Shown here: one piece after another, positions 19,885 through 42,155 of the stretch
Layout of the letters: the number at the start of each line of letters is the position of its first letter
How positions within the stretch are numbered: position 1 is the stretch's first letter
Source of the DNA: an uncultured Gammaproteobacteria bacterium
GTDB lineage: Bacteria; Pseudomonadota; Gammaproteobacteria; Ga0077536
Length of the DNA stretch: 64,000 nt
Direction of reading: 5' to 3'
Assembly: GCA_942490995.1 (NCBI GenBank)
Contig: CALOBG010000021.1
Coordinates: 91,388 to 155,387 of the forward strand
Notes under the pieces: generated by a model
Told to the model about the DNA's origin: nothing
Databases searched by the model: none
What the model saw: only the letters and a program-made list of their open reading frames with translations
Program-made: the position numbers and the translations under genes

Positions 19885-19953
19885 TAAGCTGCTCCGAATC
19901 GAATTCCACGCCGGTCGCAACATGATAACCCGACCCGGCCGGTACGGGCCCTG

Positions 19954-21159: not shown

Positions 21160-21240
21160 GGATATTCCCTCGTTGACGTCGTGGACGACGGATCCTACCA
21201 GCCGTTGAATGGCCAGCGGCAGGAGATGGGTTAGCCCGGT

Positions 21241-21476: not shown

Positions 21477-21517
21477 ATAGACTCACACTCAGATCCCAAG
21501 CCGCTCGGAGACAGGAT

Positions 21518-22522: not shown

Positions 22523-22571
22523 CCTACCCACTATCCGACCGACGATTTTTCAGAACGGGATCCGAATTATC

Positions 22572-23359: not shown

Positions 23360-25004
23360 GTGGTGATGGTGCTCGGCGCACCCGATCGCGCAGCACTGCG
23401 CGAATCCTATTGGCCGGCGACGCACGAGGTCGCATTGCTTGATACGACCTGTGGCGGGGTCCTGCGACAGGCCGCGGCGGCGACCCCGAACCAGATCGCA
23501 CTGATCGACGCCGACGCACCACCCGGGAGCACGGCGTCGCTGGACTTACAGCGCCTTGCTCGCCGATGCCGAAGCCACGGCTCGCGCGCTGCTGACCCGC
23601 TTCGAACCCGGTACGCATATCGCGCTATGGGCCGCCAACTGCCCCGACTGGATCATCCTCCAGTACGGACTGGCGCTCGCCGGTATGGTGCTGGTGACCG
23701 TCAATCCCGCCTACCGTGCCGCGGAACTCGCCTATGTACTACGCCAGTCGCGGGCACGCGCAATCATCCACCAGGCTGCCTACCGCGGCCTCGACATGCG
23801 CGCCGCGGTCGCCGAGGCCAGCCGCGCAGAGGGTGTCGAACTCGCGCTAACGCTGTGTCTCGATGAGCTGCCGGACTTCCTTGCCGCCGCCGCTCAGGGC
23901 GCGGCGCTACCGAGCGTCGACCCGCGCAGCGCCGCAATGATCCAATACACCTCCGGCACCACCGGCCAGCCCAAGGGTGCCCAGCTCAACCACTACTCTA
24001 TAACCAACAATGCCCGCTTCATGGCACTGTTAAAAAACCTCGACAGCCGCACCGTTAACCTCGCCGTCGCGCCGCTGTTTCATACTGCCGGTTGCGTCGG
24101 CGGCGTGCTCGGCGCGGTACAGACCGGCAGCACATTGTTGCTGCCCTCAAGCTTTGATGCCGATTCCATGCTCGACCTGATCGAAAGCGAAGGCGTGACC
24201 TACACCTTCGCGGTACCGACCATGCTGATCGCGATGCTCGCCGCGCAGGCGGCCAGGCCGCGCGACCTGTCGAGTCTCGAAACAGTGTTCTCGGGCGGGG
24301 CAATCGTACCGATCGAGGTCGTACGGCGGGTGGAAAAGGAGTTCGACGTACGCCTCATCATCGGTTACGGACAGACCGAAACCTCACCGGCAATTACCCA
24401 CACCCGGCTCGACGACAGTGCCCGCGACAAAAGCGAAACGATCGGTTACGCGATCCCGCAGACCGAAATAAAAATCATCGACCCGGAAAGCGGCGCGACC
24501 CTGCCTGTCGATACCCCCGGCGAACTCTGTACGCGCGGTTTCCTGGTCATGATGGGCTATTACGCTATGCCCGAAGCAACCGCGCAGACCATCGACCGTG
24601 AAGGCTGGCTGCATACCGGCGACTTATGCACTATGGATGCACGCGGTTATTGCCGTATTACCGGTCGACTGAAGGACATGATCATCCGCGGCGGTGAAAA
24701 CATTTATCCGCGCGAAATCGAGGAACTGCTCTACACCCATCCCGCCGTCGCCGAAGTGGCGGTGATTGCGATCCGCGACGACTACTGGGGCGAGGAAGTC
24801 GGCGCAGTGCTCAGTTTCGAGTCCGGACAGACCGCCGACAGCGACAGTCTGCGCCAGTTTACTGCCGCTGCGCTGGCTCGCCACAAGGTGCCGAAACACT
24901 GGTTCGCGATGCCGTCGATACCGACCACCGCCTCGGGTAAGCTGCAGAAATTCCGACTCGTAGAAATGTTCGAGAGCGGTGCGCTGGAAACTTATCGCTT
25001 GTAG
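23360..25004 (+). CDS. AMP-binding acyl-CoA synthetase / fatty-acid-CoA ligase with an apparent +1 frameshift near 23537 (N-terminal 58 aa in frame 2, the rest in frame 0).
   Basis: Frame 2 gives …PNQIALIDADAPPGSTA…; frame 0 continues …RWTYSALLADAEATARALL… Motifs: A3 YTSGTTGQPKG, A5 GYGQTE, A7 WLHTGD, A8 GRLKDMIIRGGENIYPREIE, A10 SGKLQK. The two frames overlap at 23502-23560. Confidence 0.6.
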
Positions 25005-25032: not shown

Positions 25033-27477
25033 TCAAACGGAATCCAGCAGCTGGGCCAGGCGGCGCGCCAGGGCCGGCGCGTTTTCGCTGCTGATGGCAT
25101 CGCCGCTGTCATGGCCCGGCGCGGCCAGGATTTCAACGTCACTGCCCAGTACCGCAGGATCGCGCATTATCGGCGCGCCACCGGCCTCCTCGGCTGCGTC
25201 GCGCGCCGTATGCAGAACCACGATACGCCGCGCATAGGGGCGTGGCTGGTAATTCCTGGTCGCCGCGAGGTTGGATGCCGTCACGATGTTCAGTCGCAGC
25301 TCGGTGCGGGCGCCGTAGAACGGGTCACGATGGCGAATTTTTTCACGCGCGAGAGCGATTTTTCCGGCCAGCCAGGCACGCCTGCCAGGGCCGTCAAGGC
25401 GGCGTAACTCGGCCATGTAAAGACGTATCCGCCCAAGTACGAAGCGCACGCGAATGCCGAGACCGGTCGGCGCACTGCTCACCGTGTGCGCGGCCGGACG
25501 AGCAAAAAACGGGTCCATCAGGATCAGCAGCTGTGGCGCCCGCCCGGCCTTGTCGAGTCGATGCGCCATCTCGAACGCGGCCGCAGCTCCCCAACAGATA
25601 CCCAACAGCGCAAATGGTCGTCCATCGAGGTCGGGCATCGCGGCGATGAATTCGTCGGCGATCGACTCGATCCGCGTCAAGGCCTGACCCTGACCATCCA
25701 GTCCTTTGCTTTGCAGCCCGAAAAACGGCTGCCCGGGACCGAGTGCGCGGGCCAGTGCCTCCAGGCTGACGACATTTCCACCTACCCCCGGCACCACGAA
25801 CAGAGGCGGCCGCGAACCGCGCGGCTGAATCGCGACCAGCACCGAAGACGGCAACTCCGGTTGTTCCAGCAGGCGCAGCAATTTACGGATGCTGCCCGCT
25901 TCAAACAGGATCGACAGCGGCAGACTGCGGCCGATGACCGTTTCCATCTCGCCGAACACCAGCGCGGCCTGCACGGAGCTGCCGCCGAGGGCAAAAAAGT
26001 CGTCGTCGATACCGATCCGTTCGAGGCCCAGCGCGGCACGCCAGATTTCGCATAGCCTTGTCGCCAGGTCAGACAGATCCGCGGCGGCCGGCACCGCTAT
26101 CTCGGGCTGAGCCGCCGACGGCGGCGTCAGCAGGGTGCGCGCGTGGCGCAGCACCGGTTCGGCTTCGAGTTTGGCCAGCAGCGTAGCGAGCGTGGCGTCG
26201 CCGACTTCGACCAGCACGGCGAAAACCCGCTCGAGCAGATCGACACAGGCCTCGGCCAGCGCCGCACCGACCACGGCTGTGTCGTACACCGCGCTGATTT
26301 GTAGCGCCCCATGTGATTCCGCGATAAACAAAGAGAGCGGGAACGCATTGTCACTCGGGCTTGCGATCTGCTCGATCACGAGATCGTCGCTGCGGCGGGT
26401 CTCCGTACCCGGCGCGTGCAGCACCAGCAGGACATCGAATAGCGGCGTATCCAGCGGTACCCCGCTGGCGCGCTGAACGTCGGCCAATGACAGGTATTCG
26501 TATGGCTGACGCGCGCTGGCAGCGGCGTGCAGGTCCCGCAGCCAGGCGCCAAAATCTACATCTTGGTCGAGGGTGAAAAACACCGGCACGTTGTTGATGA
26601 ACGAGCCCATCGTCCGCTCGATATTGCGCACCCCTGGCGGCCGCCCCGATACGGTGAGCCCGAAGCAGGTCTCACTGCTATTGGCGAGCTTTGCGAGGGC
26701 GATAGCGAGCGCCGCCTGGATCACTACTGCAAAGGTCGTGCGCTGGCTGCGGGCGATCGCGGCCAGCGCCGCCGTGGCCGCTGCCGGCAGCCGGCGGCTG
26801 AGCGAAGGCTGGCCGTCACGGGCATCGCCGTCACGCCGCTCGGCTCGCCAGAACAACAACTGCGGGCGTCGTAAACCTCTCCCCACCGAGACCCAATAGC
26901 GCTCGGCAGCCGCGCGATCCTGATTCTTCAGCCACGCTATGTAGTCGCGATAGCGCCCGGGTGGCGGCAGCGCCGCACCGCGCTGCGCGTAACATGCGAA
27001 CAACTCCTCGAACAGGATGTCCACGCACCAACGGTCGAGGATCAGGTGGTGGCGGGTCCAGATCAGGAGCCAGTCATCCGCGCCGGTCCGCAGCAGCGTC
27101 AGGCGCATCAACGGCGCTCGGCGCAGATCAAATAGCTGCCGCCGTTCACCTTCGTAGTGCGTCGCCAGCGCCCGTTCGCGCTCGGCGTCGGCGAGGACGC
27201 TGAGATCTTCGTACTCAAATGGCACGGTGACCTTATTGCGGATCACCTGCACCGGTTGCTGGACCCCTTCCCAGACGAAGCCCGCGCGCAGGATCTCGTG
27301 TCGCGCGAGGAGCTGCTGCCACGCGTCGTGAAAGCGCTTTACATCGAGTTCGCCGTGGATGCGGTAGCGGAATTGATTGACCAGCACGTGCGAGTCGGTG
27401 GCCGCGAGCGTATGCGTCAGCATCAAATGCTGCATGGGCGACAGCGGGTATATGTCGTCGATATTTTTTTGGGGCAT
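25033..27477 (-). CDS. NRPS termination protein: condensation domain - PCP - thioesterase, with a Cys in the TE nucleophile position (GICWG) and no A domain.
   Basis: C motif HHLILDRWC (aa ~143), PCP FFALGGSSVQA (aa ~495), TE GxCxG LLGICWGAAAAFEMA (Cys628, codon at 25594-25596). 814 aa. Confidence 0.85.
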   Translation of the reverse strand: MPQKNIDDIYPLSPMQHLMLTHTLAATDSHVLVNQFRYRIHGELDVKRFHDAWQQLLARHEILRAGFVWEGVQQPVQVIRNKVTVPFEYEDLSVLADAERERALATHYEGERRQLFDLRRAPLMRLTLLRTGADDWLLIWTRHHLILDRWCVDILFEELFACYAQRGAALPPPGRYRDYIAWLKNQDRAAAERYWVSVGRGLRRPQLLFWRAERRDGDARDGQPSLSRRLPAAATAALAAIARSQRTTFAVVIQAALAIALAKLANSSETCFGLTVSGRPPGVRNIERTMGSFINNVPVFFTLDQDVDFGAWLRDLHAAASARQPYEYLSLADVQRASGVPLDTPLFDVLLVLHAPGTETRRSDDLVIEQIASPSDNAFPLSLFIAESHGALQISAVYDTAVVGAALAEACVDLLERVFAVLVEVGDATLATLLAKLEAEPVLRHARTLLTPPSAAQPEIAVPAAADLSDLATRLCEIWRAALGLERIGIDDDFFALGGSSVQAALVFGEMETVIGRSLPLSILFEAGSIRKLLRLLEQPELPSSVLVAIQPRGSRPPLFVVPGVGGNVVSLEALARALGPGQPFFGLQSKGLDGQGQALTRIESIADEFIAAMPDLDGRPFALLGICWGAAAAFEMAHRLDKAGRAPQLLILMDPFFARPAAHTVSSAPTGLGIRVRFVLGRIRLYMAELRRLDGPGRRAWLAGKIALAREKIRHRDPFYGARTELRLNIVTASNLAATRNYQPRPYARRIVVLHTARDAAEEAGGAPIMRDPAVLGSDVEILAAPGHDSGDAISSENAPALARRLAQLLDSV

Positions 27478-27606
27478 ACTTGTTGTCGCCTTACCGAGCC
27501 ACGTGACCGAGATCCCACCGATGCGTCGTTCGCTGGTTAATGCTGCTGAATTCCGTTATCGAAAGCCAGCCTGGCCGAGGGCGCCGCGAGCGCTGGGGTC
27601 GATGGC

Positions 27607-29247: not shown

Positions 29248-29925
29248 TCACGCACCGGGATCGCTTTCGAGACCGTCGAGCATTGCGGCGATCTCGCTGA
29301 TCTGGGATTCGTCGAGGTCGATCAGGGGTTCGTCGGCAGCAACGCTGTCGGGGCCCGCCTCGCTGGTGGCGGCGGCCTGTGCGGCGATAGTGGGGTGGTC
29401 AAAAAACTGCTCCGGCGACAATTTCAGGCCCTGCGACTGCGCGCGCGACAGGATACGAATGCTCAGCAGCGAGTCGCCGCCGAGTTCGAAAAAATTATCG
29501 TCGACACTGACCTCGTCGATGCCGAGCACATCGCACCAGATCTGTGCCAGCAGGCGTTCGGCGCGGGTGGTCGGCGCCGTACCTGTTTCGCTCACGTTCA
29601 CTTCAAGTGCGCCGGCCAGAGCCACTGCGGCGCGACGGTCGAGTTTACCGTTGGCCAGACGCGGCAGGGCGGTAACCGCGAGAAACTGGCGCGGCACCAT
29701 GTACTCGGGCAACCGCTCGGTGAGATGCGCGGTGAGTTCGCTCGCCTGCGGATGCCGCTCGGCGCGCGCGACGAAACACGCCACCAGCCGTGCGCTGTCC
29801 GGCGCCTGCGCAAGGGTGTGCTGCGTGATCAGTGCGCCGAGCAGACGCCTGCGTTCCGGCGCCAGCTGTCGCAGCCGCTCCGCCACACTTCGAGCAGAGC
29901 CCTTGCCGCTTGAGGTAACGCTCAT
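29248..29925 (-). CDS. NRPS fragment: C-terminal A-domain subdomain (motifs A9-A10) plus PCP.
   Basis: …LVACFVA…LPEYMVPRQFLAVTALPRLANGKLDR (A9/A10), then PCP FFELGGDSLLSI. Its ATG overlaps the stop of the upstream methyltransferase ORF (ATGA). Confidence 0.75.
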   Translation of the reverse strand: MSVTSSGKGSARSVAERLRQLAPERRRLLGALITQHTLAQAPDSARLVACFVARAERHPQASELTAHLTERLPEYMVPRQFLAVTALPRLANGKLDRRAAVALAGALEVNVSETGTAPTTRAERLLAQIWCDVLGIDEVSVDDNFFELGGDSLLSIRILSRAQSQGLKLSPEQFFDHPTIAAQAAATSEAGPDSVAADEPLIDLDESQISEIAAMLDGLESDPGA

Positions 29926-30713
29926 TTAATCGCCCTGACCACAACCATTGACCGCGCCCACCAGGCGTCCTGCACGTCCTGCGGAATATCCAGCGCGTCT
30001 ACCCGCGACAGGTGGATGGCGCTGAAATGTTCGAACAGCCGGCGCTGGTGACCGCGACTCAGCGAATCGATTTCGTTGGACAGATAGGTGAAGCTGCCGC
30101 CAGGATGCAGGTGGGCCGCGGCGTGGGCAAAAAAATGCTCGGCGAAAGTTGTACTGGCAGCGATCTGTTCGATGAACTCGTCTTCGTTCAAGGGGTAGGT
30201 GTGAAAAAAAATCCCATCGAATGCTCCCAATTGCGGCAGAACGTCCTGCCACATGCCGCCGAGCATCTCGATTGCTCGGTCAGGATAGCTATCGCGCCAG
30301 CGCTGAAATCGCCCGATGATATGCTCATTGCATTCGATAATCGTGTGGGTACTAACGCCGCAATCCTGGATCAGGGCCGAGGCAATCCCACGGCCGAAAC
30401 CGATTTCCAGGATATCGCCGTGACTGACCGTCACCGCGTCGGCCATCGCGCGCATCAACGGGATCTGCCAGTCTTCCATGATCTGCTCGTCGCTCAGTTC
30501 AGCCTGCGCGCGGTCCGCGGTGACCAGCTTATCGCTGCCGGCCACGAGCTCGCCCGCCGTGCGGTCCAGCGCGAGCAGGTTATCGGCCAATTCGCTGACC
30601 GCCCGGTTGAGCAGCCAGTTGCGCTGCGCGTCGCGTGGCGGACGGATAAAATCCTCGCGTTTGATCTCGAGGCTGATCGCAAAATCCCGCGTCTTTTTGT
30701 AGCGTCTGGTCAT
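29922..30713 (-). CDS. SAM-dependent methyltransferase of the guanidinoacetate N-methyltransferase (GAMT/RMT2-like) fold.
   Basis: QIPLMRAMADAVTVSHGDILEIGFGRGIAS…THTIIECNEHIIGRFQRW…MWQDVLPQLGAFDGIFFHTYPLNEDEF aligns closely with mammalian GAMT (…RVLEVGFGMAIAAS…HWIIECNDGVFQRL…[29 protein letters not shown]). ATGA overlaps at both ends. Confidence 0.8.
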   Translation of the reverse strand: MTRRYKKTRDFAISLEIKREDFIRPPRDAQRNWLLNRAVSELADNLLALDRTAGELVAGSDKLVTADRAQAELSDEQIMEDWQIPLMRAMADAVTVSHGDILEIGFGRGIASALIQDCGVSTHTIIECNEHIIGRFQRWRDSYPDRAIEMLGGMWQDVLPQLGAFDGIFFHTYPLNEDEFIEQIAASTTFAEHFFAHAAAHLHPGGSFTYLSNEIDSLSRGHQRRLFEHFSAIHLSRVDALDIPQDVQDAWWARSMVVVRAIK

Positions 30714-33577
30714 GTTTGCGCCCGGCTCGTCGAAGTCTGCTCGAATGCGCCAAGGTCACTGAGTGCGGCAGCCACTTCTATTTCGGTGAGTCCCTCAACC
30801 CGCTCCAGCAAGGCGGATACGATTTCATCTGGCAGCGCTGTCAGCGCGGTCTCCAGCTTTTCCATGTCGCCGTCCGTAATCGGGGCCAGACTTGCACGAT
30901 CGGCCACGAACACCATCGCTTCCGCGACGTCCGCGTGCTGCTGCAGCGCCGCTTCGACTTCTTCCGGTTCGATACGAAAGCCACGTACCTTGACCTGGTG
31001 GTCGATACGCCCAAGAAACTCGAAGCGGCCGTCGCGCAGTTGGCGAACCCGGTCGCCGGTCCGGTAGAGGCGCGGATCCGGCTCGGCTCGGAACGGATTG
31101 TCGATGAAGTTCTCAACATTGCGCGGGTCGTCGCCGACATAGCCGGCGGCGATGCACACGCCTCCTATCAGTAACTCGCCCTCGGCGCCGAGGGGCACCG
31201 GCCGTAGCTGCGCGTCGACGACGTAGGTGGAGACGTGGGGCAGCGGCCTGCCGATGGTGACGCGGGTAGCAGCGCCGTCGGCGGTGAGCTCCGCCATCGT
31301 TGCCCACACCGTCGCTTCGGTTGGCCCGTACTCGTTGTACAAAGCGGTGTTCGGCAGTTGCCGGCAGTGCTCGAGCTGCAGCCGCGCCGGACATGCCTCG
31401 CCCGCAACGATAACGCTACGCAGGTCCGGCAGCGCGACGCCGCCGAGCTGCTCGACAATGAGCGCGTGCAGGCTTGGCAGGCACAGCACATGGGTGATCC
31501 CCTCACTGGCGATGCGTGCAACCAGGCCGGCCATGTCCTGCTCGGCCCGCGCGCGCGGCAACACCAGGGTGCCACCGGTGGTCAGCGTCCAGAACAGACC
31601 GGCCACCGAGCTGTCCGTCGCCAATGACGACAAAAGTAGAAACCTGGCCGGATCATGACCATAAACCTGGCTACGCGCCGCTGTCGCAACCTGTAGCTGG
31701 CGGTGAGAAATCATCACCCCTTTGGCAGCGCCGGTGCTGCCCGAAGTGAACATCACGTAGGCCAGGGTGTCGGCGTCACTGGCCACCACGGCCGCCGCCG
31801 CGGCCGGCGAAGCAGGCGCTGTATCGGTGCACAGCGCCTGCCACGGTGGCGGTACATGCGCGGCTGCGACGGAGGTCGTCACGACCACGCCGGCCTGACC
31901 ATCCGCAGCGGCGAGCGTCGCCAGCAGGGCCGCGATGCGCGCTGGTGGGTGCGACGTATCCAGCGGTACGTAGGCGCCTCCGGCAAACAGGATCGCAAGG
32001 ATCGCAACAATCGCCTCGCTATCGCGCGCCATCAGCACCGGCACGCTGTTGCCTGCGGCGACGCCACGCTCGGCAAGCGTAGTGGCCAGCACCGCAGCGC
32101 GTTCGACAAGTTCCGCGTAGCTGAGCTCGCCGCGTTCGTCGCGCACGGCAATCGCCTGCGGTGTGCGCAAGGCTACCTCGACAATCCGCTCATGGATCCC
32201 GCCGCGAACCGAAGTCGATGCCGCGGGCGGCAACGCGGGCGCAAGCAGCCGCGCCTGTTCGTTGGGACTACACGGCGGCGCCTGCTTGAGTGGTTGCGCC
32301 ATGCCGGCGTTCATGAATGCCAACGTAGCGATGACGTGCTGCAGCAGCGACTCGACGAACTCGTCGCCGAACTTCGCGCGATCGTAGACCGCGATGAGTT
32401 CCAGTTCGGCCCCGGGCACGGCAAGCAGGGCAAAAGGATAGTGGCTGAATTCGCGGTAGTTTTCCTCGCTCGGCGCCAGTGCCGCCCCCCCGCCGTCGCC
32501 GGCGGCGGCAAAATTCTCGACCACCAGGATGGTGTCAAACAACGGTGTCCCCGGCGCCACCGCACTCCATTTCTGGATCTCGGCAAGCGGCGTCTGTTCA
32601 AATTGACGCGCCGCCAGGTGTGCTGCCTGGATCGCATGCAGGTAGTCACCCAGACTGGCCTGCGACGAGATGGCGATCCGTTGCGGCAAGGTGTTGATGA
32701 ACAGGCCGACGATCGATTCCGCGCCGTGCAGGTCGGCGGGGCGGCCGTGACTGGTCGTGCCGAAGACGACGTCGTCACTGCCGGCGTGGCGAGCGAGTAC
32801 CCACGCGTAGGCGCCGGCGAGCATGGTGTAAAAAGTCAGCCGTTGTTCGCGCGCCAGCCTCTGCAGGGCTTGCCATCGCTCGCCGTCGAGCACCTCGCAG
32901 CGTGTCGCCCCGGCGCCTGCCGGGCCCGCGCTCGTGGCCTCGGATCCGGCATCGACGAGCCGCGTAGGTGCTGCGAAACCATCCAGTGCCGAGCGCCAGT
33001 AGCTGTGCGCGGCCGTGTGATCCCGCTGCTCCAGCCAGCGCACGAATGTTTCAAAGGCCGGCGCCGCCGGCGCGCGCGCTGACGATCCATAAGCCGCGGC
33101 GAGCTCGTTCAGGACCAGGCGAGCCGACCAGCCGTCAACCACGAGGTGGTGGAAGCTCCATAGCATGCGCCACGAGTCCGCGCCGAGACGGAACAACGCA
33201 ACGCGCAGCAGCGGTGCCTGTTCGAGTACGAAACCGCGCGCCCGGTCAGCGTCGAGGAAAGCCGCGAAACGAGCGCTCTGGTCCGCGGCCGGCAGGTCGC
33301 TCCAGTCCTCATCGTGCCACGGCAGGTCGACCTGCCGGCGAACCAGCTGCAGGGGTTTTTGCCGTCCCTCCCAGCTGAACAGGGTACGCAGGGCATCGTG
33401 GCGCTGAACGATCCCGCACCAGGCTTCGCGCAGACGTTGCGGGTCGATAGCCTGCTCGTAACGACAACTGTACTGGTCGAAGTAGACGCGCTCATCGGGC
33501 CGGCGCAGGGTGTGGTAGAGGATCCCTTCCTGCATCGGGGTCAGGCGATAAATCGCCTTGATGTTGCTGTCTGCCAT
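30710..33577 (-). CDS. NRPS fragment: condensation domain + A-domain core (motifs A1-A8), ending just after A8.
   Basis: C: HHLVVDGWS. A: LAYVMFTSGSTGAAKG (A3), YNEYGPTEATV (A5), YRTGDRV (A7), GRIDHQVKVRGFRIEPEEVE (A8), then HADVAEAMVFV. The probable start is MADSNIK at 33577 (ORF-track Met at 33628). Confidence 0.8.
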   Translation of the reverse strand: MADSNIKAIYRLTPMQEGILYHTLRRPDERVYFDQYSCRYEQAIDPQRLREAWCGIVQRHDALRTLFSWEGRQKPLQLVRRQVDLPWHDEDWSDLPAADQSARFAAFLDADRARGFVLEQAPLLRVALFRLGADSWRMLWSFHHLVVDGWSARLVLNELAAAYGSSARAPAAPAFETFVRWLEQRDHTAAHSYWRSALDGFAAPTRLVDAGSEATSAGPAGAGATRCEVLDGERWQALQRLAREQRLTFYTMLAGAYAWVLARHAGSDDVVFGTTSHGRPADLHGAESIVGLFINTLPQRIAISSQASLGDYLHAIQAAHLAARQFEQTPLAEIQKWSAVAPGTPLFDTILVVENFAAAGDGGGAALAPSEENYREFSHYPFALLAVPGAELELIAVYDRAKFGDEFVESLLQHVIATLAFMNAGMAQPLKQAPPCSPNEQARLLAPALPPAASTSVRGGIHERIVEVALRTPQAIAVRDERGELSYAELVERAAVLATTLAERGVAAGNSVPVLMARDSEAIVAILAILFAGGAYVPLDTSHPPARIAALLATLAAADGQAGVVVTTSVAAAHVPPPWQALCTDTAPASPAAAAAVVASDADTLAYVMFTSGSTGAAKGVMISHRQLQVATAARSQVYGHDPARFLLLSSLATDSSVAGLFWTLTTGGTLVLPRARAEQDMAGLVARIASEGITHVLCLPSLHALIVEQLGGVALPDLRSVIVAGEACPARLQLEHCRQLPNTALYNEYGPTEATVWATMAELTADGAATRVTIGRPLPHVSTYVVDAQLRPVPLGAEGELLIGGVCIAAGYVGDDPRNVENFIDNPFRAEPDPRLYRTGDRVRQLRDGRFEFLGRIDHQVKVRGFRIEPEEVEAALQQHADVAEAMVFVADRASLAPITDGDMEKLETALTALPDEIVSALLERVEGLTEIEVAAALSDLGAFEQTSTSRAQT

Positions 33578-33590
33578 ATGCCCGGCGTCC

Positions 33591-36500
33591 CTACTCGCCA
33601 AACTCTGCGAGCACGCGGTCGAGTTCACCCTGGTCGACGTCGGCGGCAGGGAAATCCGAGGGCGTCAGGGCCGCGACGGCGCCGCTCGCGGCAAGCTCGA
33701 TGATGGCGCCCAGTTCGCCAATGACAGCGCCCGCGAGGTGCTGGATGGTCGAAGGCCGATAACAATCAGCAGCATAGGACCAGTCCAGCCGTAGTCGACC
33801 GTCAAAAATGTACGCATTGATTTCGAGCAGGTAGGGACGCGGTCCGGTAGCAGCCGTTACCGCGCGCAGCGGCCCCGACAGGCGCACACGCGCGTCACCG
33901 CGCGTAGCCCTGTCCCATTGGCCGAGATAATTGAACAATACCGGCGCAGAACCGGCACGCGAGACGCGCTCAGCGCCGTAATGAAGCAGGTTGTATCCGG
34001 CGCCGTGGGCGGGCACCGCACGCAGCTTTTCCTTGACCTGCCTGACGGTTTCAATCAGCGTCTCGCCGCTGCGACACTCAAACAACACCGGGTAGATGCT
34101 CGTGAACCAACCCACGGTGCGGGTCAGATCCATACCTTCGACCAGGGCTTCGCGGCCATGGCCTTCGAGGTCGAATTTCAGCAGCGACCCGCCGTGCCAG
34201 CGCGCCAGCACGCGAACCACGCCGGCAAGCAGGACTTCTGGCACCTGGACACGCCAGCTCGCCGGCACCTGATGGACCAATGCCGCGGTCTGTTCGCGAT
34301 CGAGCCTGCTCGTCAAGCGTGTACTGCTGGCATAGTCGTTCACGCTTTCGGGGTAATCGCAGCGCAGGGTCATGACACTGGCATCAATCTGTGCCCAGTA
34401 CTCCGCCTCGGCTGGCCCGGCGCTGCCCGCGTGCTGCGCCGCCAGCGCCAGCGCCCAATCCGCCACCGCGGTGGTTTTGCGCGGTAGCGTCACCGCCGCG
34501 TGGGCTGCCAGCTGCTGGCACGCTCGCTCGAGGTCATCAAGCAGTATCCACCATGACACGCCATCGATGAGCAGGTGGTGCACGGCAATTACCAGCAGAG
34601 AAGCCGGTTGATCGGCGCCGCGTGGCAGCCAGCGCAACTGCACCAGCGGACCGCGTTCGATATCCATCGTGCCGTTCATTGCGTCGATCAGGGCATCGAG
34701 ATCGCTGGCGCTTTCTTCTCCCGGTGCCGGGCCGGGTATCGGCGTCGCCGCGACGCTCGGCGGGTCTATACACTGCCGCCAACCGTTGGCCCTGCGCTCG
34801 AAACGACTGCGCAGGACATCATGATGGGCCACGACCTGCGCCCACGCCTGGGTCAGCACCGTAACCTCCAGACCCGCGTCGACTTCGACCACGGCAACCT
34901 GACTCAGCGCTGGCGGCGGGTCCTCAGCGAGTTCGAAAAAGCGCCGTTGCATCGGCAGCAGCTCAACCTCACCTTCGACAGGTCCCTGTGTTGCGGACGT
35001 CGTGGGAACGTCGCGGCATACCGCGGCCGCCGCGGCCACGGTCGGAAAGTCAAACAGATCCTGCGGCGTCAGTTCGAGGCCCGCGGCCCGGGCTCGCGCG
35101 ACAATCTGAATATTGAGAATCGAGTCGCCGCCGAGGTCAAAAAAATTGTCATTGATGCCGATGCGGGCAAGACCGAAAACTTCACACCAGATGCCGGCGA
35201 GCAGGTGTTCGTTACGGCTGACCGGCGCGACAAATTCTGTATCCAGACCGGTGCGGGCATACTGCGGCGCCGGCAGGCGTGCGCGATCGAGTTTGCCATT
35301 CCCGGTCAACGGCACGGCCTCCAGCCGTACGAAATGGCGCGGCAGGTATTCCGACGGCAATCGCGCGCCGAGGTGCTCCAGCAGGCGGCCGCGATCCAGC
35401 TCGTCATCGGCGACGTAATAAGCGATCAGCTCGATGTGCCGACGGGTCGCTGCGGACGCTTCTTGATGGTGGTAGCCGATAGACGCGAGTATGCGTCTGA
35501 CGTTTTCGATGTTGATATCGTCATCGAGTTCGGCGAGGGCGGCGTTGCGCTCCTTGTGGCCGAGCCTCACATCCCAGCTATAAGGCAAGGCGTAGTTGTG
35601 ATGCCGGCGCTCGGTTTTGTGTACGTGGATGCCGGCCTCATTGATCAGACAATTTGTCGAACGCCCGGTGTCCGCCGGACGGACCCAGGGCGCGCCGTGC
35701 TGCAGATAATCGAGCATGTCACCCAGGGTCGCGTCGCAGTAGCGGTAGAAATCGACAAACTTGATTTCCTCGAACACGCGATCGGATCGGAACAGCGAGA
35801 CGTCGAGCGCCGCGGATACCGCGTCGTGCATGCGATGATAAATCTTGCGTGCTTCGATGATATTGCGATCGATTTCAGCAGGATCGTAAATTTTCTGCCG
35901 AAACTGATCGGCGACCCGGGTCTCGAAGATCTGTCCGCGCGAAAGTCCGGTAAAGATGTGGCGTATGCCGCGTTCGTGAGCGAGATTCATCGACAGCGTG
36001 TATATGGTCTTGAAGCAGCCATTGCAGACATTGCTGTGACGCTTGAGGCTGTCGACGAAGATAGCGTCCATCGCGGGCGTGGTGGCACTGACCAGTTCGA
36101 GTCCGAGTTTATCGACCACCCGGCGGATGTTGTCTTTCGCCCCATCGGAGATGTAGCCGTTGTCGAGGGTAAAGACCAGCGGCGTCAGACCGAGATCGAC
36201 AAGCTGGCACAGCGCGTAGGTACTGTCCTTGCCGCCGCTCAACAGCATCATGCAGTCCGGCGTGCGCGGTGTCGCTGCCCGCACTTCGGCAACGATGTTC
36301 TCGAGGTCCTGCTGGTCGCCGAAATAGCGCATCGCCTGTTCGCGCTCGCGGGCGAAACGGCGGCAGATGCCACACACCCCGGCGCCGTCGAGATCGGCAT
36401 CGGGATGATTGGAGGCGAGACCGCAATGCACGCAGTACTCGATTTCCTGCGCCCGTGCTTCGCGGTCGTCGGCAATCACCACCGCTTCACGCAGCCCCGG

Positions 36501-39134
36501 ATAAGCGGCGAGGACGCTTTCGATTTCGCCCAGCTCGATCCTGATCCCGTTGACCTTGACCTGTTGATCGATGCGTCCAAGATATTCGAGCCGGCCGTCG
36601 GCGTTCCATCGAGCCAGGTCGCCGCTGAGATACATACGCCCACCACGATTGAACGGATCGTCAACGAAGCGGGCCGCGGTTTCCTCATCGCGGCCGAGAT
36701 AACCCAACGCGACCCCGGCGCCGCCTATCGCGATTTCGCCAGCGACACCGCGCGGCTGCAGACCAAGCCTGCTGTCCAGAACGTAGATTGTCGCGCCGTC
36801 AATCGGGCGGCCTATCGGTACCGAGATATCCGTATCGGCATGCGGGTCGAAACGATGGATCATGCATCCGACGGTCGCCTCGGTCGGCCCGTACTCGTTG
36901 TAGATCTCAATCTCGTCGTTGAAATATTTCGAAACCGTACGCGCAACATCGGTTTTCAGGTCGTCGCCGCCGAGGATCATGACCCGCAGCCGCGAATGAG
37001 TCAGATCCATCGCTTGCAACAGCGCCAGGTGCGCGGGCGTAAGCTTGATGATATCGGCGCGGTTGTCCTCGATCACCCGTCGTAAGACGATGTCGCGGCC
37101 GCCCTCGAGTTCCGGGTAGACCAGTACCCGCCCGCCGCTCAGCAACGGCAGGAAACACGTCGTTACCGTCAGATCGAAAGCCATGGCCGTGAACAGGGGA
37201 AAGGTCAGCTGCGCGCCGCGCACATACTGACGCTCCGCCCAGTCGAGATAATTGACAACATTGGCGTGGGTCACGGCAACGCCTTTCGGAGCACCGCTCG
37301 ACCCCGAAGTGTAGATGACGTAGACACGATCGTTGGCCGTTACTACAGGCGCCGGATTGCTATCGGGACGCCCCGCCGCGGCGCGCGCGAAATCCGCGTA
37401 GACCTCGGTCGCCCAGCGTTCGTCACGCGGCTGGCCCGCGGCGGAATCGACCAGCCACAGTCGCGCGCCGGCGTCCGCAACGCAGTGCGCGCGACGCGCG
37501 CCGGGATCGTTCGTGGACAGCGGCAGGTACGCCGCACCGCATTTGATCACCGCTAGCATTGCGATCACTGCCTCGGCAGAGCGGCGCATGCCAAGCGCAA
37601 CCACGTCGCCCGCGCCGATGCCGCGCGCACGCAATTCGTGCGCGAGACGGTTGGCGTCGCTGTTCAAGCTGCCGTAGTTCCATACCACGCCGTCACATTC
37701 GAGCGCCGGCAAATCACGATGGCGCGCTGCACAGTGCTCGAAACGCGCGCCCAGGGTCAGCGTCCGATCTGCGGAGGTCTGGATCCGCCCTCGCGCGACG
37801 GAGAGCAGGGCGCGGCGGGCCGCGGCGTCAAGGAGATTTACGGCGGTTATCGAACCTTCAGGTTGGTCAACAAATGCGTCAATGATGGCGAGCAGGTGCC
37901 GCCGCGCGGCATCCGCGTCATCGACACTGAAGCTGTCCTCGTTGAGATCGAGAAACAGCCCGAAAACGTCGGCCTGGTCGAAATCGTGCACCTGCAGACG
38001 CAACACGTGGTTGCGATCGCCATAGCCCGCATGCACCCACTCGGCGGTGGTCGGATGCGCATCGAACTCGCCGAACTCGGCGGTGATGTAATTCAGTACC
38101 ACGTTAATGCCGCGGACCTGGTCAAAACCGCTTGCGCCGGGCTGCGCGTTGAGCAGGAATGCCCGTGCCTCGCGCGCGACCTGCTGGTACACGCTCGCGA
38201 ATGTGTCGTCGGCGCTGAGGGTGAGCGTCAACGGGAAGATTTCGATGAACAGGCCAGCGGTCTGCTTGAACGACTTGCTCGATCGATTGTGCGCCGGCGT
38301 GCCGATCACCACCTCACCAACGCCGGTGATCCGGTACAGGTAGACCGCGAGCGCGGTAAAAAAAATCTGAAAGCGCGCCAGGTCGCTGTTGAAGGCGCGA
38401 AACGCCGGCGCTTCGGCGAGCGCTCGAATCGCTCGCGAGCGGTCTGCACCAAGCGCTACCGCGTAGCGCCGGGTACGGCCGCTGCGGGTCGGCGCCGGGC
38501 GCCGATAAAACTGCGGCACCGGACCGCTCAGATCGCCCTTGGCGCGCCAGTATTCGCGCGCGCGCCGGCACGCCCGCGAGTCCTGGTGACGTCGTTCGTA
38601 CTCGACATAGTCGCGGTAGGGAGGCAGCGCAGGCGTCGGCGTTTCGAGGCCGGACCTGGCGGCCTGATACAGCGCGCTCATATGGCGGAAAATCACCGAT
38701 ACCGACCAGGCATCGGTGACGACGTGGTGTTGGTTGAAATACCACACCGATTCCTGCGCGGAAAGGTACAACAGTGCGGTATCGAACAGGCGACGCGCGT
38801 AGTCGAACGGGCGCCGCGCGCGGGCCTCCAGCCATGCGGCCAGGGCCTCGCGCGGATCACGGCGGCTGGAGAAGTCGACGGTTTCGAGGGCGAAATCCAT
38901 CGTTTCGAGGACGCGCTGGCGCGACTCCCCGGCGTCTTCGTCGATGACCGTACGCATCGCACCGCAGCCCTGCAGCAGGGCGCGAAACGCCCGCTCGAAG
39001 GCATCGGCGTCAAGCGCCGTACCGATATGAAAGGCAAGCACCATGTTGTACAGCGGGTCGTCAGGCTGCAGTCGCTGCCCGGTCCAGATCAGTTCCTGCG
39101 CTCGAGTCAGCCGCATGGACGCTTGATCTTCCAT
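33591..39134 (-). CDS. NRPS: C - A - PCP - C, with the A domain interrupted between A8 and A9 by a ~340-aa TtcA/TtuA-like PP-loop domain.
   Basis: C1 HHVVTDAWS; A3 YTSGSSGAPKG; A4 FDLT; A5 YNEYGPTEATV; A8 GRIDQQVKVNGIRIELGEIE; insertion aa ~899-1237; A9/A10 LPSEYLP…NGKLDR; PCP FFDLGGDSIL; C2 HHLLIDGVSW. 1847 aa. Confidence 0.9.
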   Translation of the reverse strand: MEDQASMRLTRAQELIWTGQRLQPDDPLYNMVLAFHIGTALDADAFERAFRALLQGCGAMRTVIDEDAGESRQRVLETMDFALETVDFSSRRDPREALAAWLEARARRPFDYARRLFDTALLYLSAQESVWYFNQHHVVTDAWSVSVIFRHMSALYQAARSGLETPTPALPPYRDYVEYERRHQDSRACRRAREYWRAKGDLSGPVPQFYRRPAPTRSGRTRRYAVALGADRSRAIRALAEAPAFRAFNSDLARFQIFFTALAVYLYRITGVGEVVIGTPAHNRSSKSFKQTAGLFIEIFPLTLTLSADDTFASVYQQVAREARAFLLNAQPGASGFDQVRGINVVLNYITAEFGEFDAHPTTAEWVHAGYGDRNHVLRLQVHDFDQADVFGLFLDLNEDSFSVDDADAARRHLLAIIDAFVDQPEGSITAVNLLDAAARRALLSVARGRIQTSADRTLTLGARFEHCAARHRDLPALECDGVVWNYGSLNSDANRLAHELRARGIGAGDVVALGMRRSAEAVIAMLAVIKCGAAYLPLSTNDPGARRAHCVADAGARLWLVDSAAGQPRDERWATEVYADFARAAAGRPDSNPAPVVTANDRVYVIYTSGSSGAPKGVAVTHANVVNYLDWAERQYVRGAQLTFPLFTAMAFDLTVTTCFLPLLSGGRVLVYPELEGGRDIVLRRVIEDNRADIIKLTPAHLALLQAMDLTHSRLRVMILGGDDLKTDVARTVSKYFNDEIEIYNEYGPTEATVGCMIHRFDPHADTDISVPIGRPIDGATIYVLDSRLGLQPRGVAGEIAIGGAGVALGYLGRDEETAARFVDDPFNRGGRMYLSGDLARWNADGRLEYLGRIDQQVKVNGIRIELGEIESVLAAYPGLREAVVIADDREARAQEIEYCVHCGLASNHPDADLDGAGVCGICRRFAREREQAMRYFGDQQDLENIVAEVRAATPRTPDCMMLLSGGKDSTYALCQLVDLGLTPLVFTLDNGYISDGAKDNIRRVVDKLGLELVSATTPAMDAIFVDSLKRHSNVCNGCFKTIYTLSMNLAHERGIRHIFTGLSRGQIFETRVADQFRQKIYDPAEIDRNIIEARKIYHRMHDAVSAALDVSLFRSDRVFEEIKFVDFYRYCDATLGDMLDYLQHGAPWVRPADTGRSTNCLINEAGIHVHKTERRHHNYALPYSWDVRLGHKERNAALAELDDDINIENVRRILASIGYHHQEASAATRRHIELIAYYVADDELDRGRLLEHLGARLPSEYLPRHFVRLEAVPLTGNGKLDRARLPAPQYARTGLDTEFVAPVSRNEHLLAGIWCEVFGLARIGINDNFFDLGGDSILNIQIVARARAAGLELTPQDLFDFPTVAAAAAVCRDVPTTSATQGPVEGEVELLPMQRRFFELAEDPPPALSQVAVVEVDAGLEVTVLTQAWAQVVAHHDVLRSRFERRANGWRQCIDPPSVAATPIPGPAPGEESASDLDALIDAMNGTMDIERGPLVQLRWLPRGADQPASLLVIAVHHLLIDGVSWWILLDDLERACQQLAAHAAVTLPRKTTAVADWALALAAQHAGSAGPAEAEYWAQIDASVMTLRCDYPESVNDYASSTRLTSRLDREQTAALVHQVPASWRVQVPEVLLAGVVRVLARWHGGSLLKFDLEGHGREALVEGMDLTRTVGWFTSIYPVLFECRSGETLIETVRQVKEKLRAVPAHGAGYNLLHYGAERVSRAGSAPVLFNYLGQWDRATRGDARVRLSGPLRAVTAATGPRPYLLEINAYIFDGRLRLDWSYAADCYRPSTIQHLAGAVIGELGAIIELAASGAVAALTPSDFPAADVDQGELDRVLAEFGE
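35430..36440 (-). other. Embedded PP-loop ATP pyrophosphatase (adenine-nucleotide alpha-hydrolase) domain of the TtcA/TtuA/Ncs6 type inside the NRPS A domain.
   Basis: CxxC-x16-CxxC (CVHCG…CGIC, aa 901-924), P-loop SGGKDS (aa 966-971; nt 36222-36239 verified), CNGC (aa 1037/1040) and a distal Cys1133 at TtuA-like spacings. Confidence 0.6.
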
Positions 39135-39383: not shown

Positions 39384-39396
39384 GCTCGCTCCTCGC

Positions 39397-41006: not shown

Positions 41007-42155
41007 CTACAACCCGAGCATGCGGGCGACGATATTGCGCTGGATATCGGAGGTTCCGGCGTAGATCAAGCCGCCAACCGCGTCGCGCAAATCGCGTTCG
41101 ATGCCGGCCTCGCTGACATAACCCTCGCCGCCGTGGACGCGGATTGCATCGAGACTCGACTGGGTAAAACTTTCGCTGATATGCAGCTTGAGCAGGGCCG
41201 CCTCCGCGATCGCGCTGCGCCCGGACATTTTGAGCCAGGCGACTTTGTACAACAGCAGCCTAGCGGTTTCGAGGCGCAACTTCATATCAACGATACGGTT
41301 GGATACGGACTGAAATTTACCGATGGCCTGACCAAACTGGTGGCGCTTGCGTGCGTACGCGATAGTTTCGTCGAGCTGTCTGGCCATCGCGCCCAGTTGG
41401 CTGGCAAGGATGCTGCATCGCTCCCATTCCAGGAACCCGTTCGAAAGGCTGACACCGGCCCCCTCCGCCCCGAGCCGTTGCGCGACCGGCACCAGGCAGT
41501 CTTCGAATATCAATTCGCCGAACGGCACACTACGCAGGCCCATCTTCTCGCGATTGACGCCGACCCGGCAGCCGGCGGACGCAGTTTCGACCAGGAACGC
41601 ACTGATCCCCCATTTGCCAACCGACGGATCGGTACTCGCGAAAACCAACGCGACGTCTGCCACCGGGCCAAGTGAGACATAGCGCTTTTTGCCGTTCAGG
41701 ACATAGCCGCCGTCACATGCTGTCGCGCGGGTCGCCAGGCTGAACACGTCGGAGCCGGTGTCATCTTCGGTAATGGCATGGCAACCGATCATGTCACCGG
41801 CGGCGAGTGGCGGAAGAAAGCGCGCTTTCAACGCTTCGCTGCCGGCCTGCACGATGGGCAGTTGTACCGTCCACATCTGCGCATTAAGGGCAAACGCCAG
41901 ACCGTTGTCACGGCAGCCATAGCCGAAACCTTCCATGGCCAGGATTGCGGTTAGAAAATCGGTGTCCGGAAATCCACTATAGGCTGTCGGTAACGACATG
42001 GCCTGGATGCCGAACTCGGCGCAGGCGCGCCATTTTTCCTGCGGAAAGCGACTCAGGTGATCGTCGACGTCGACTTCGTGCGTGAGCCTGGTCGCGGCGA
42101 ATTGTTGCACCGCCGCCTGGCGCGCGAGTTGGGCTTCGGTCCAGTTGAAATCCAT
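41007..42155 (-). CDS. Acyl-CoA dehydrogenase-family FAD enzyme (PltE/RedW-like acyl- or aminoacyl-S-carrier-protein dehydrogenase).
   Basis: 382 aa with the ACAD three-domain fold (…GKKRYVSLGPVADVALVFA…; C-terminal …IYAGTSDIQRNIVARMLGL). Directly upstream of the stand-alone A and PCP genes. Confidence 0.8.
   Translation of the reverse strand: MDFNWTEAQLARQAAVQQFAATRLTHEVDVDDHLSRFPQEKWRACAEFGIQAMSLPTAYSGFPDTDFLTAILAMEGFGYGCRDNGLAFALNAQMWTVQLPIVQAGSEALKARFLPPLAAGDMIGCHAITEDDTGSDVFSLATRATACDGGYVLNGKKRYVSLGPVADVALVFASTDPSVGKWGISAFLVETASAGCRVGVNREKMGLRSVPFGELIFEDCLVPVAQRLGAEGAGVSLSNGFLEWERCSILASQLGAMARQLDETIAYARKRHQFGQAIGKFQSVSNRIVDMKLRLETARLLLYKVAWLKMSGRSAIAEAALLKLHISESFTQSSLDAIRVHGGEGYVSEAGIERDLRDAVGGLIYAGTSDIQRNIVARMLGL

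What the first reader, a model, noticed from the sequence alone, without database searches (positions are those of the whole stretch)
25033..25836. Thioesterase domain with cysteine in place of the nucleophile serine (GICWG) in an A-less C-T-TE protein
The terminal protein (814 aa) is C-PCP-TE. Its TE has LLGICWG where GxSxG is expected (Cys628; codon 25594-25596 confirmed as TGT). Cys-TEs are rare and have been linked to unusual release chemistry (e.g. beta-lactone formation in obafluorin ObiF). The protein also lacks an A domain, so its PCP must be loaded in trans.
Basis: partly seen in the sequence, partly recalled or inferred. Interest (0 to 1): 0.55.

Follow-up and report, generated by a model that had tools for sequence, protein, structure and literature searches.

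The report
Cysteine thioesterase lacking its catalytic histidine
The last enzyme of a peptide-antibiotic-type assembly line ends in a release domain that uses cysteine instead of serine and, like about 130 uncultured-bacterial relatives, has also lost the usual catalytic histidine, so it probably releases its product by chemistry not yet described for this enzyme class.

Summary

The ObiF-like interpretation is only partly right. The Cys is not a one-off: 138 of 144 full-length TE relatives have it. Those relatives form one clade, known only from MAGs and metagenomes. In that clade the canonical catalytic His is replaced, giving the consensus PG-x-D-[ST]-G-[DE]. All six Ser-containing relatives keep the His.

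The acid residue, Asp655, sits at the EntF/AB3403 position, not the ObiF/SulM position. The query has His789 one or two residues before the canonical site, an arrangement shared by only 5 of 138 relatives.

The A-less C-T-TE architecture is conserved (at least 50 relatives). However, the same TE type also ends A-containing modules, which argues for a release role rather than a loading role.

The protein belongs to a conserved, uncharacterised gene cluster with these parts:
- a Pro-to-pyrrolyl starter cassette;
- an AMDH-type insert in the first adenylation domain (A1);
- a second adenylation domain (A2) split around a GAMT-like methyltransferase;
- a novel membrane protein.

Best reading: an S-acyl-Cys628 intermediate resolved without hydrolysis, probably by an amine. 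This is a new variant of a known kind, and the mechanism is inferred, not shown.

The parts
25033..27477 (-). Gene for the 814-aa stand-alone C-PCP-TE protein, the A-less termination module
   Evidence: ORF list and translation; Pfam domains; about 60 orthologues/paralogues with the same architecture
26185..27456 (-). Condensation domain (aa 8-431), with the HHLILD active-site motif at aa 143-148 (27034-27051)
   Evidence: Pfam PF00668, E 1e-71; motif found; coordinates
25867..26058 (-). PCP domain (aa 474-537); the phosphopantetheine-carrying Ser501 is the codon at 25975-25977
   Evidence: Pfam PF00550, E 1.5e-10; GGSS motif, S501 invariant in 57 of 57 family members
25036..25836 (-). Thioesterase-fold domain (aa 548-814) with a lid of three long helices (about aa 672-741)
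25588..25602 (-). Nucleophile elbow G626-I-C628-W-G630; the Cys628 codon TGT is at 25594-25596
   Evidence: Cys in 138 of 144 relatives, both Gly residues invariant; aligned to the Cys of AB3403 GWCFG
25513..25515 (-). Asp655 (LILMD), the acid residue at the EntF/AB3403-type 'position I'
   Evidence: Asp or Glu in nearly all clade members; aligned to the IVMID Asp of AB3403
25099..25119 (-). Loop after the last strand, P787-G-H789-D790-S791-G-D793. The canonical catalytic-His column is occupied by D790 (register of AB3403 and the Ser members) or by S791 (register of the GMC-type sister group)
   Evidence: HMM alignment to 4zxh; hhalign of A1 against A2; column counts D103/N19/T12/H9 and S85/T42; only 9 of 138 Cys members have any His in this loop
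27607..29208 (+). 533-aa polytopic membrane protein of unknown fold, transcribed divergently from the C-T-TE gene; a conserved neighbour of C-T-TE genes
   Evidence: 46% identity to L081:12556-14175; adjacent homologues in L080, L082 and L084; only 17 homologues in 5.8e9 proteins; AF2 pLDDT 88.7 with no significant PDB fold match
29248..29925 (-). A-subdomain (A_C) plus PCP of module 2, the upstream donor carrier for the C-T-TE protein
   Evidence: Pfam AMP-binding_C and PP-binding
29922..30713 (-). 263-aa GAMT-like methyltransferase gene lying between the A-core and A-sub genes (ATGA overlaps on both sides)
   Evidence: PDB guanidinoacetate N-methyltransferase 1xcj/3orh, E 6e-24; 58% identity to L081:7142-7930; PF27704 in orthologous loci
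30710..33628 (-). Module 2 C domain plus A-core
   Evidence: Pfam Condensation and AMP-binding
33591..39134 (-). Module 1: C(starter)-A[SGGKDS insert]-PCP-C/E (1847 aa)
   Evidence: Pfam; insert sequence; weak QueC and N-acetyl-sugar-amidotransferase matches; AMDH domain of CysH/AlbIV described in PMC7966384
39141..39383 (-). 80-aa free-standing carrier protein
   Evidence: ORF with a DSLG motif; 84-aa PP-binding genes in the same position in L082 and L083
39397..40980 (-). Free-standing amino-acid adenylation enzyme
   Evidence: TIGR01733, 367 bits against a cutoff of 317
41007..42155 (-). PigA/RedW-like prolyl-carrier-protein dehydrogenase (pyrrole-2-carboxyl starter)
   Evidence: NCBIfam PigA E 6e-117 and RedW-type E 7.5e-106, both below the curated cutoffs

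Best explanation
The domain is a genuine type-I NRPS thioesterase-fold off-loading domain. It belongs to a previously undescribed clade whose active site has changed in two linked ways. Cys replaces the Ser nucleophile, and Asp (followed by Ser/Thr-Gly-Asp/Glu) replaces the catalytic His. The position-I acid (Asp655) is retained.

Proposed mechanism, with each step marked as shown or inferred:
1. Inferred: the C domain joins the upstream pyrrolyl-peptidyl chain (donor PCP at 29248-29925) to an aminoacyl group on its own PCP (Ser501). That PCP is loaded in trans, most likely by one of the cluster's own A domains, as in CmnI/CmnA-A1.
2. Inferred: the chain moves by thiol-thioester exchange onto Cys628. 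This step needs no His-type general base.
3. Inferred: because no His is present to activate water or a hydroxyl group, the S-acyl enzyme is protected from hydrolysis. It is resolved by a good nucleophile that needs little activation, most likely an amine. The amine could be intramolecular (lactam or amidine-type cyclisation) or a free amine. The acidic D790/D793 loop would position or deprotonate the cationic nucleophile.

Shown here: the architecture, the fold, the Cys, the loss of the canonical His, their clade-wide conservation, and the gene-cluster context.
For: - Architecture and Cys codon.
- Cys occurs in 138 of 144 relatives. All 6 Ser relatives have PGxH, and only 9 of 138 Cys relatives have any His in the loop. 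No other column is His-rich apart from a general N/H column at 799.
- Two independent profile alignments place the canonical His on D790 (against AB3403) or on S791 (against the Cys+His sister families).
- In an NJ tree the His-less members form one contiguous block flanked by Ser+His and Cys+His groups.
- The same TE type terminates A-T and C-A-T modules (at least 43) as well as C-T modules (at least 51). This fits a release function rather than a loading function.
- The family shows strong purifying conservation of G626/C628/G630, D655, E636 and the lid residues R683 and Y743.
- Known Cys-TEs work through an S-acyl-Cys intermediate (PMC6668435, PMC11298585).
Against: - No biochemical data exist for any clade member; all those looked up are from MAGs or metagenomes.
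- I could not read model coordinates, so I cannot exclude that H789 reaches Cys628 in this particular protein and restores a conventional triad.
- The query has lost the clade's near-invariant Trp (D773 in place of W, 139 of 144), and the model is less confident there. This hints at some relaxation of constraint.
- The off-loading nucleophile and the product are unknown.
- The trans-loading partner of Ser501 has not been identified.
Confidence: 0.5

Rival explanations
1. A conventional Cys-His-Asp thioesterase in this particular protein. His789, one or two residues before the canonical position in a flexible loop, swings in to complete a triad with Cys628 and Asp655. Release is then ordinary hydrolysis or macrocyclisation, as presumed for AB3403.
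For: - H789 lies in the correct loop, directly after the last beta strand.
- The closest solved relative by profile is AB3403, which has Cys, a position-I Asp and His.
- Loop registers differ by one residue between canonical families (G+2 versus G+3), so some positional plasticity exists.
Against: - His at G+1 occurs in only 5 of 138 Cys members (3.6%), about what chance gives at a variable position. The orthologues in the same cluster type have K/A/R/S/T/D there.
- The query keeps the clade motif D790-S791-G-D793, which replaces the His.
- Function is expected to be shared with His-less orthologues at 40-47% identity.
Confidence: 0.2
2. An in-cis acyl/aminoacyl shuttle rather than a release catalyst. 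Like the free-standing SyrC, CmaE, CysB and LgnA enzymes, the Cys domain picks up an aminoacyl group from another carrier protein by transthioesterification and deposits it on the adjacent A-less PCP. Both half-reactions are thiol-thioester exchanges and need no His.
For: - The module is A-less, and the cluster has one more carrier domain than A domains (window, L082, L083).
- Alpha/beta-hydrolase shuttles that load A-less C-T units are established (PMC8748450, PMC7966384). SyrC and CmaE use a Cys nucleophile; this point rests on my own knowledge of Singh 2007 and Strieter 2007.
- The missing His fits a non-hydrolytic transferase.
Against: - The same His-less Cys-TE type also ends at least 43 modules that have their own A domain (A-T-TE, C-A-T-TE). 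A shuttle would be pointless there.
- The nearest structures are type-I terminal TEs.
- No alternative release enzyme is evident in the window's cluster.
- Homology to SyrC/CmaE could not be tested.
Confidence: 0.15
3. A catalytically dead or purely structural TE remnant (TE0, as proposed for PacP). The product would be released by another enzyme or spontaneously.
For: - The canonical His is missing.
- The query has additionally lost the conserved Trp773.
- PacP has a TE0 lacking the triad (PMC8748450).
Against: - Cys628, both elbow glycines, D655 and the replacement motif D-[ST]-G-[DE] are conserved across about 135 sequences down to about 30% identity. Lid residues are also conserved. This is the pattern of a selected active site, not of decay.
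Confidence: 0.08

Closest known systems
AB3403 (ABBFA_003403) terminal TE domain, Acinetobacter baumannii, PDB 4zxh/4zxi
   Different: AB3403 keeps the catalytic His (PGDHS), whereas this clade has Asp in that column. AB3403 is a complete C-A-T-TE module, whereas this protein lacks the A domain. The product and release chemistry of AB3403 are also unknown.
ObiF1 TE (obafluorin beta-lactone synthetase), PDB 6n8e
   Same: It has a Cys nucleophile in a type-I TE fold, forms an S-acyl-Cys intermediate and releases its product without hydrolysis (PMC6668435).
SulM TE (sulfazecin beta-lactam-forming), PDB 8w2c/8w2d
   Same: It has a Cys nucleophile and a cyclising release in which a base may not be needed for the attacking nitrogen (PMC11298585).
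SyrC / CmaE / CysB / LgnA aminoacyl-shuttling alpha/beta-hydrolases
   Same: They are alpha/beta-hydrolase-fold enzymes that form a covalent aminoacyl-enzyme and hand it to A-less C-T units without hydrolysing it. SyrC and CmaE use Cys.
   Different: They are free-standing proteins, not fused terminal domains. LgnA has a canonical Ser-Asp-His triad (PMC8748450). Sequence relatedness to this clade was not tested. This TE type also follows A-containing modules.
A-less NRPS modules loaded by a trans-iterative A domain (CmnI/VioI; HMWP1 of yersiniabactin)
   Same: The module has C and T but no A. The carrier is aminoacylated by an A domain of another module (PMC12400406).
   Different: CmnI is an internal C-T unit without a TE. 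The partner A domain in this cluster is unidentified.
PacP A-T-TE0 (pacidamycin)
   Same: It has a TE-like domain without a complete catalytic triad in an NRPS (cited in PMC8748450).
   Different: The PacP TE0 is regarded as inactive. In this clade the nucleophile and a defined replacement motif are strongly conserved.

Membership tests
Type I NRPS/PKS thioesterase domain (PF00975, alpha/beta-hydrolase) | Alpha/beta-hydrolase core with a helical lid, closest to solved TE domains | tested here: met
Type I NRPS/PKS thioesterase domain (PF00975, alpha/beta-hydrolase) | Fused directly C-terminal to the last carrier domain | tested here: met
   PCP 474-537 followed by TE from about 548
Type I NRPS/PKS thioesterase domain (PF00975, alpha/beta-hydrolase) | Nucleophile elbow G-x-S/C-x-G | tested here: met
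   G626-I-C628-W-G630, aligned to the nucleophiles of 4zxh, 7crn and 9f7b
Type I NRPS/PKS thioesterase domain (PF00975, alpha/beta-hydrolase) | Acid residue of the triad | tested here: met
   D655 aligned to the position-I Asp of AB3403; Asp or Glu throughout the clade
Type I NRPS/PKS thioesterase domain (PF00975, alpha/beta-hydrolase) | Catalytic His in the loop after the last strand (PGxH / PGxxH) | tested here: not met
   The canonical column holds D790 (against AB3403 and the Ser members) or S791 (against the Cys+His sister group). The query's H789 is at G+1 and is shared by 5 of 138 members. Whether H789 can substitute in 3D could not be measured.
ObiF1/SulM-type Cys-TE (beta-lactone / beta-lactam forming) | Cys nucleophile | tested here: met
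   Cys628
ObiF1/SulM-type Cys-TE (beta-lactone / beta-lactam forming) | Acid residue at position II (RifR-like), with a small residue at position I | tested here: not met
   Position I is occupied by D655. ObiF1 has Gly1173 there, and a G1173D variant is detrimental (PMC6668435).
ObiF1/SulM-type Cys-TE (beta-lactone / beta-lactam forming) | Catalytic His required for activity | tested here: not met
   As above. H1284A cripples ObiF1 (PMC6668435).
ObiF1/SulM-type Cys-TE (beta-lactone / beta-lactam forming) | SulM Gln-Cys-Asn motif, or substrate-supply genes (threonine transaldolase, Dap synthesis) | tested here: not met
   The motif here is Ile-Cys-Trp. Pfam and NCBIfam scans of neighbouring genes show no such enzymes.
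AB3403-type Cys / position-I Asp / His TE | Cys plus position-I Asp plus canonical His | tested here: not met
   Two of the three are met; the His is replaced. In the NJ tree, Cys+His groups lie outside the His-less block.
SyrC/CmaE/CysB/LgnA aminoacyl shuttles | Free-standing alpha/beta-hydrolase acting between two carrier proteins | tested here: not met
   The domain is fused to C-PCP. The same TE type follows A-containing modules.
SyrC/CmaE/CysB/LgnA aminoacyl shuttles | Sequence homology to SyrC/CmaE | not tested
   No SyrC or CmaE sequence or structure was available through the tools.
SyrC/CmaE/CysB/LgnA aminoacyl shuttles | Stable aminoacyl-enzyme and transfer to an A-less carrier | not testable with these tools
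   Requires intact-protein MS.
A-less NRPS module loaded in trans | C and T domains present, no A domain between them | tested here: met
   Pfam; at least 51 relatives have a C-T-TE architecture.
A-less NRPS module loaded in trans | An identified A domain that aminoacylates the carrier | not testable with these tools
   The adjacent 23556-25004 gene is a fatty-acid-CoA-ligase family member, not an NRPS A domain, and is not conserved in orthologous loci. The cluster has three A domains for four carriers.

The most novel reading that the evidence does not exclude
This clade may be a distinct mechanistic class of NRPS off-loading domain: a 'Cys-Asp-Asp' thioesterase fold that has given up general-base catalysis. 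It would hold the finished chain as a hydrolysis-resistant thioester on Cys. It would then release the chain only to a cationic nitrogen nucleophile (amine, amidine or guanidine) docked on the acidic D-[ST]-G-[DE] loop. The products would be lactam-, amidine- or amide-terminated peptides made by uncultured bacteria. The clade is coupled to a conserved A-less C-T unit and to a novel membrane protein.
Probability: 0.3. Interest if true: 0.75.

Novelty: new variant of a known kind. Interest (0 to 1): 0.6.

Why it matters
Thioesterase domains decide the final shape of nonribosomal peptides, and they are prime engineering targets. The Cys-TEs characterised so far (ObiF1, SulM), and the solved but functionally uncharacterised AB3403, all keep a His-containing triad. 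A coherent clade of about 135 sequence clusters has Cys and has replaced the His with Asp. If it is active, general-base catalysis is dispensable in this fold, and a release chemistry exists that has not been described. The prediction can be tested directly with C628, D790 and H789 variants and intact-protein MS. The clade also marks a family of gene clusters from uncultured bacteria whose products are unknown. These clusters combine a pyrrolyl starter, an AMDH-modified Asn and a GAMT-like methyltransferase.

Tried and rejected
- Looked up the exact protein in the assembly collection to get its native contig: not on record.
- A genome-contig scan with the single protein found only distant NRPS relatives (at most 35% identity) and did not identify the source organism.
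- The neighbouring 23556-25004 gene was considered as the trans-acting A domain. It was rejected because it is a fatty-acid-CoA-ligase family member, lies outside the conserved cluster and is absent from the orthologous loci.
- The minus-strand ORF 27556-28500 was rejected as spurious. The conserved gene there is 27607-29208 on the plus strand.
- A frameshift was considered as the reason for the divergent TE C-terminus and the missing Trp773. It was rejected because the other frames contain stops and no consensus peptide.
- I tried to identify the conserved 533-aa membrane partner by structure. The model is good (pLDDT 88.7), but there is no significant PDB fold match. The best hit is a weak one to vitamin-K gamma-carboxylase (probability 0.51, TM 0.29).
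- The afdb50 fold library was unavailable.
- Literature searches for GxCxG thioesterases and for His-less or Cys TEs returned only ObiF and SulM work and nothing on a His-less clade. The library is incomplete, so this is not proof of absence.
- Model coordinates are not exposed by the tools, so the H789-Cys628 distance could not be measured.
Full report
**Observation**

The minus-strand ORF 25033-27477 encodes 814 aa. Pfam finds a condensation domain (aa 8-431, E 1e-71), a carrier domain (474-537) and the N-terminal half of a thioesterase domain (558-658). No adenylation domain is present. The C-domain HHLILD motif and the carrier Ser501 are intact. The stated interval 25033-25836 is the TE domain, aa 548-814.

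**Is it a TE fold, and is the Cys the nucleophile?**

An AlphaFold2 model of aa 540-814, built on 19 homologues, is confident (pLDDT 89.5, pTM 0.86). It shows an alpha/beta-hydrolase core with a lid of three long helices.

- In sequence and profile alignments, Cys628 lines up with the nucleophile of these structures. It lines up with the Cys of AB3403, whose elbow is GWCFG.

**The Cys is a clade character, not a one-off**

A search of 5.8e9 proteins found about 60 stand-alone C-T-TE proteins of about 800 aa, at 30-47% identity. All have GxCxG. An exhaustive HMMER search of 1.84e9 cluster representatives with the TE alone gave 19,187 hits at E <= 0.001. Of the 144 best that cover the whole TE, 138 have Cys and 6 have Ser. 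Every member I looked up comes from a MAG or metagenome and carries only a generic name.

**The catalytic His is missing**

- Asp is present. D655 (LILMD) aligns with the position-I Asp of AB3403 and EntF and is Asp or Glu across the clade.
- The His is not present at its canonical place.
  - In the profile-to-AB3403 alignment, the His of PGDHS falls on D790.
  - In a profile-profile alignment to the Cys+His sister families, the invariant His falls on S791.
  - The two registers differ by one residue because canonical families are either PG-x-H or PG-x-x-H.
- Column counts are D103/N19/T12/H9 at position 790 and S85/T42 at position 791. The clade consensus is PG-x-D-[ST]-G-[DE].
- All six Ser-containing relatives have the canonical His. 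Only 9 of 138 Cys-containing relatives have any His in this loop. No other His-rich column exists apart from a general N/H position at 799.
- In a neighbour-joining tree of 165 TE domains, the His-less Cys sequences form one contiguous block of about 135. The block is flanked by Ser+His and Cys+His groups. This suggests the order Ser/His, then Cys/His, then Cys/Asp.
- The query itself reads P-G-H789-D790-S791-G-D793. It has a His, but at G+1. That arrangement is shared by 5 of 138 members and is absent from its cluster-type orthologues.
- I could not access model coordinates, so I cannot say whether H789 can reach Cys628. I treat that as a rival explanation with probability about 0.2.

**Comparison with known Cys-TEs**

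- ObiF1 uses Cys1146-His1284-Asp1254, with the Asp at the RifR-like position and a Gly at position I. Putting an Asp at position I is detrimental, and H1284A cripples the enzyme (PMC6668435).
- SulM uses Cys2818-Asp2926-His2956 and a Gln-Cys-Asn motif (PMC11298585).
- The present domain has Asp at position I, Ile-Cys-Trp, and no canonical His.
- The neighbouring genes include no beta-hydroxy- or diamino-acid supply enzymes.
- The beta-lactone analogy therefore has no specific support. The nearest solved relative is AB3403, from which this clade differs by the loss of the His.

**A-less architecture and loading**

The missing A domain is real and conserved: at least 51 relatives are C-T-TE. The convergent neighbour 23556-25004 is a fatty-acid-CoA-ligase family enzyme, not an NRPS A domain, and is not found in the orthologous loci.

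The window cluster and loci L082 and L083 each have three A domains for four carriers. One A domain must therefore act twice, or a shuttle must operate. Both solutions have precedents: CmnI loaded by CmnA-A1 (PMC12400406), and the SyrC/CmaE/CysB/LgnA shuttles (PMC8748450 and PMC7966384).

A fused SyrC-like shuttle would neatly explain the Cys, the missing His and the missing A domain together. However, the same His-less Cys-TE also terminates at least 43 A-T or C-A-T modules that need no shuttle. I therefore rank release above loading.

**Gene-cluster context**

The C-T-TE gene belongs to a conserved, uncharacterised cluster of about 25.0-45.6 kb. Related loci L080-L084 share most of its genes. 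Its parts are:

- a free-standing amino-acid adenylation enzyme (TIGR01733), an 80-aa carrier and a PigA/RedW-like prolyl-carrier dehydrogenase, with an ornithine cyclodeaminase nearby; together these imply a pyrrole-2-carboxyl starter;
- module 1, whose A domain carries a CxxC/SGGKDS insert of the AMDH type described for CysH and AlbIV;
- module 2, whose A domain is split over three translationally coupled genes around a genuine GAMT homologue (E 6e-24 to 1xcj);
- a HupE/UreJ-type protein and a PPTase;
- a 533-aa membrane protein next to the C-T-TE gene, which has only 17 homologues in the database and no recognisable fold.

**Mechanism proposed**

The following are shown: the fold, Cys628, D655, the replaced His, the conservation pattern and the cluster context.

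The following are inferred:

1. The chain is transferred from Ser501-pantetheine to Cys628 by thiol-thioester exchange, which needs no general base.
2. The thioester intermediate is shielded from hydrolysis because no His activates water.
3. It is resolved by an amine-type nucleophile positioned by the acidic D790/D793 loop, giving a cyclised or amide-terminated product.

Confidence is about 0.5. The rivals are:

- a conventional triad through H789 (0.2);
- an in-cis shuttle (0.15);
- a dead TE0 (0.08). This last rival is disfavoured by the strong conservation of the elbow, D655 and the replacement motif.

One caveat applies to the query specifically. It has lost the clade's near-invariant Trp (D773), and the model is weaker around aa 760-780.

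**Verdict**

The Cys alone would make this a new member of a known kind. The clade-wide, correlated loss of the catalytic His makes it a new variant of a known kind. The variant is not mentioned in the papers I could search, and it can be tested directly.

Noticed in passing
window 33591-39134 (-), about aa 905-1240 of the 1847-aa protein: The A domain of module 1 is interrupted, between the core and the A_C subdomain, by an insert of about 340 aa with CxxC...CxxC and an LLSGGKDS PP-loop. It matches QueC and an N-acetyl-sugar amidotransferase only weakly. It fits the AMDH domain (SGGKD motif, inserted in Asn-specific A domains) of CysH/AlbIV, which makes beta-cyano-Ala or isoasparagine.
   Followed up: partly
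window 29248-33628 (-); also L080:12493-14606, L081:6326-9923, L084:4487-10001: The module-2 adenylation domain is split over three translationally coupled genes with ATGA overlaps: C-Acore, a 263-aa stand-alone GAMT-like methyltransferase (E 6e-24 to guanidinoacetate N-methyltransferase structures), and Asub-PCP. The same three-gene split recurs in at least four other loci, so it is not an assembly artefact. Interrupted A domains are known, but I know of no precedent for one divided into separate polypeptides around a GAMT homologue.
   Followed up: partly
window 27607-29208 (+): A 533-aa polytopic membrane protein with a C-terminal beta-rich domain is transcribed divergently from the C-T-TE gene. 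It has no Pfam or NCBIfam hit. Only 17 homologues exist in 5.8e9 proteins, several on the same contigs as C-T-TE genes. The AF2 model is confident (pLDDT 88.7) but has no significant PDB fold match; the weakest hint is to vitamin-K gamma-carboxylase/HTTM.
   Followed up: partly
window 39141-44779: A pyrrole-2-carboxyl starter cassette: an amino-acid adenylation enzyme (39397-40980), an 80-aa carrier (39141-39383), a PigA/RedW-like prolyl-carrier dehydrogenase (41007-42155) and an ornithine cyclodeaminase (43682-44779). A HupE/UreJ_2 protein (42165-43631) lies within the operon, which hints at a metal-related product.
   Followed up: partly
window 27556-28500 (-): A 314-aa ORF on the NRPS strand overlaps the conserved plus-strand membrane-protein gene and has no family hit. 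It is probably a spurious high-GC ORF.
   Followed up: yes
window 25159-25161 (aa D773 of the C-T-TE protein): The query has Asp where 139 of 144 TE relatives, and also the Cys+His sister families, have an invariant Trp (DPRxxW). The surrounding approximately 20 residues are the least confident part of the model. No frameshift explains it.
   Followed up: partly
proteins P0042, P0047-P0067 (sister C-T-TE family, 'GMC[ST]G'): A second family of A-less C-T-TE proteins has the Cys nucleophile and keeps the catalytic His, but has Asn in place of the position-I Asp. This is another non-canonical triad variant. At least one member may share a contig with a homologue of the 533-aa membrane protein; that is inferred only from equal contig lengths.
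   Followed up: no
window 18370-23357 and 46161-50814: The cluster is flanked on both sides by TetR regulators, FMO/Baeyer-Villiger-type monooxygenases, luciferase-like monooxygenases and ACAD-like proteins. Whether any of them tailor the NRPS product is unknown.
   Followed up: no
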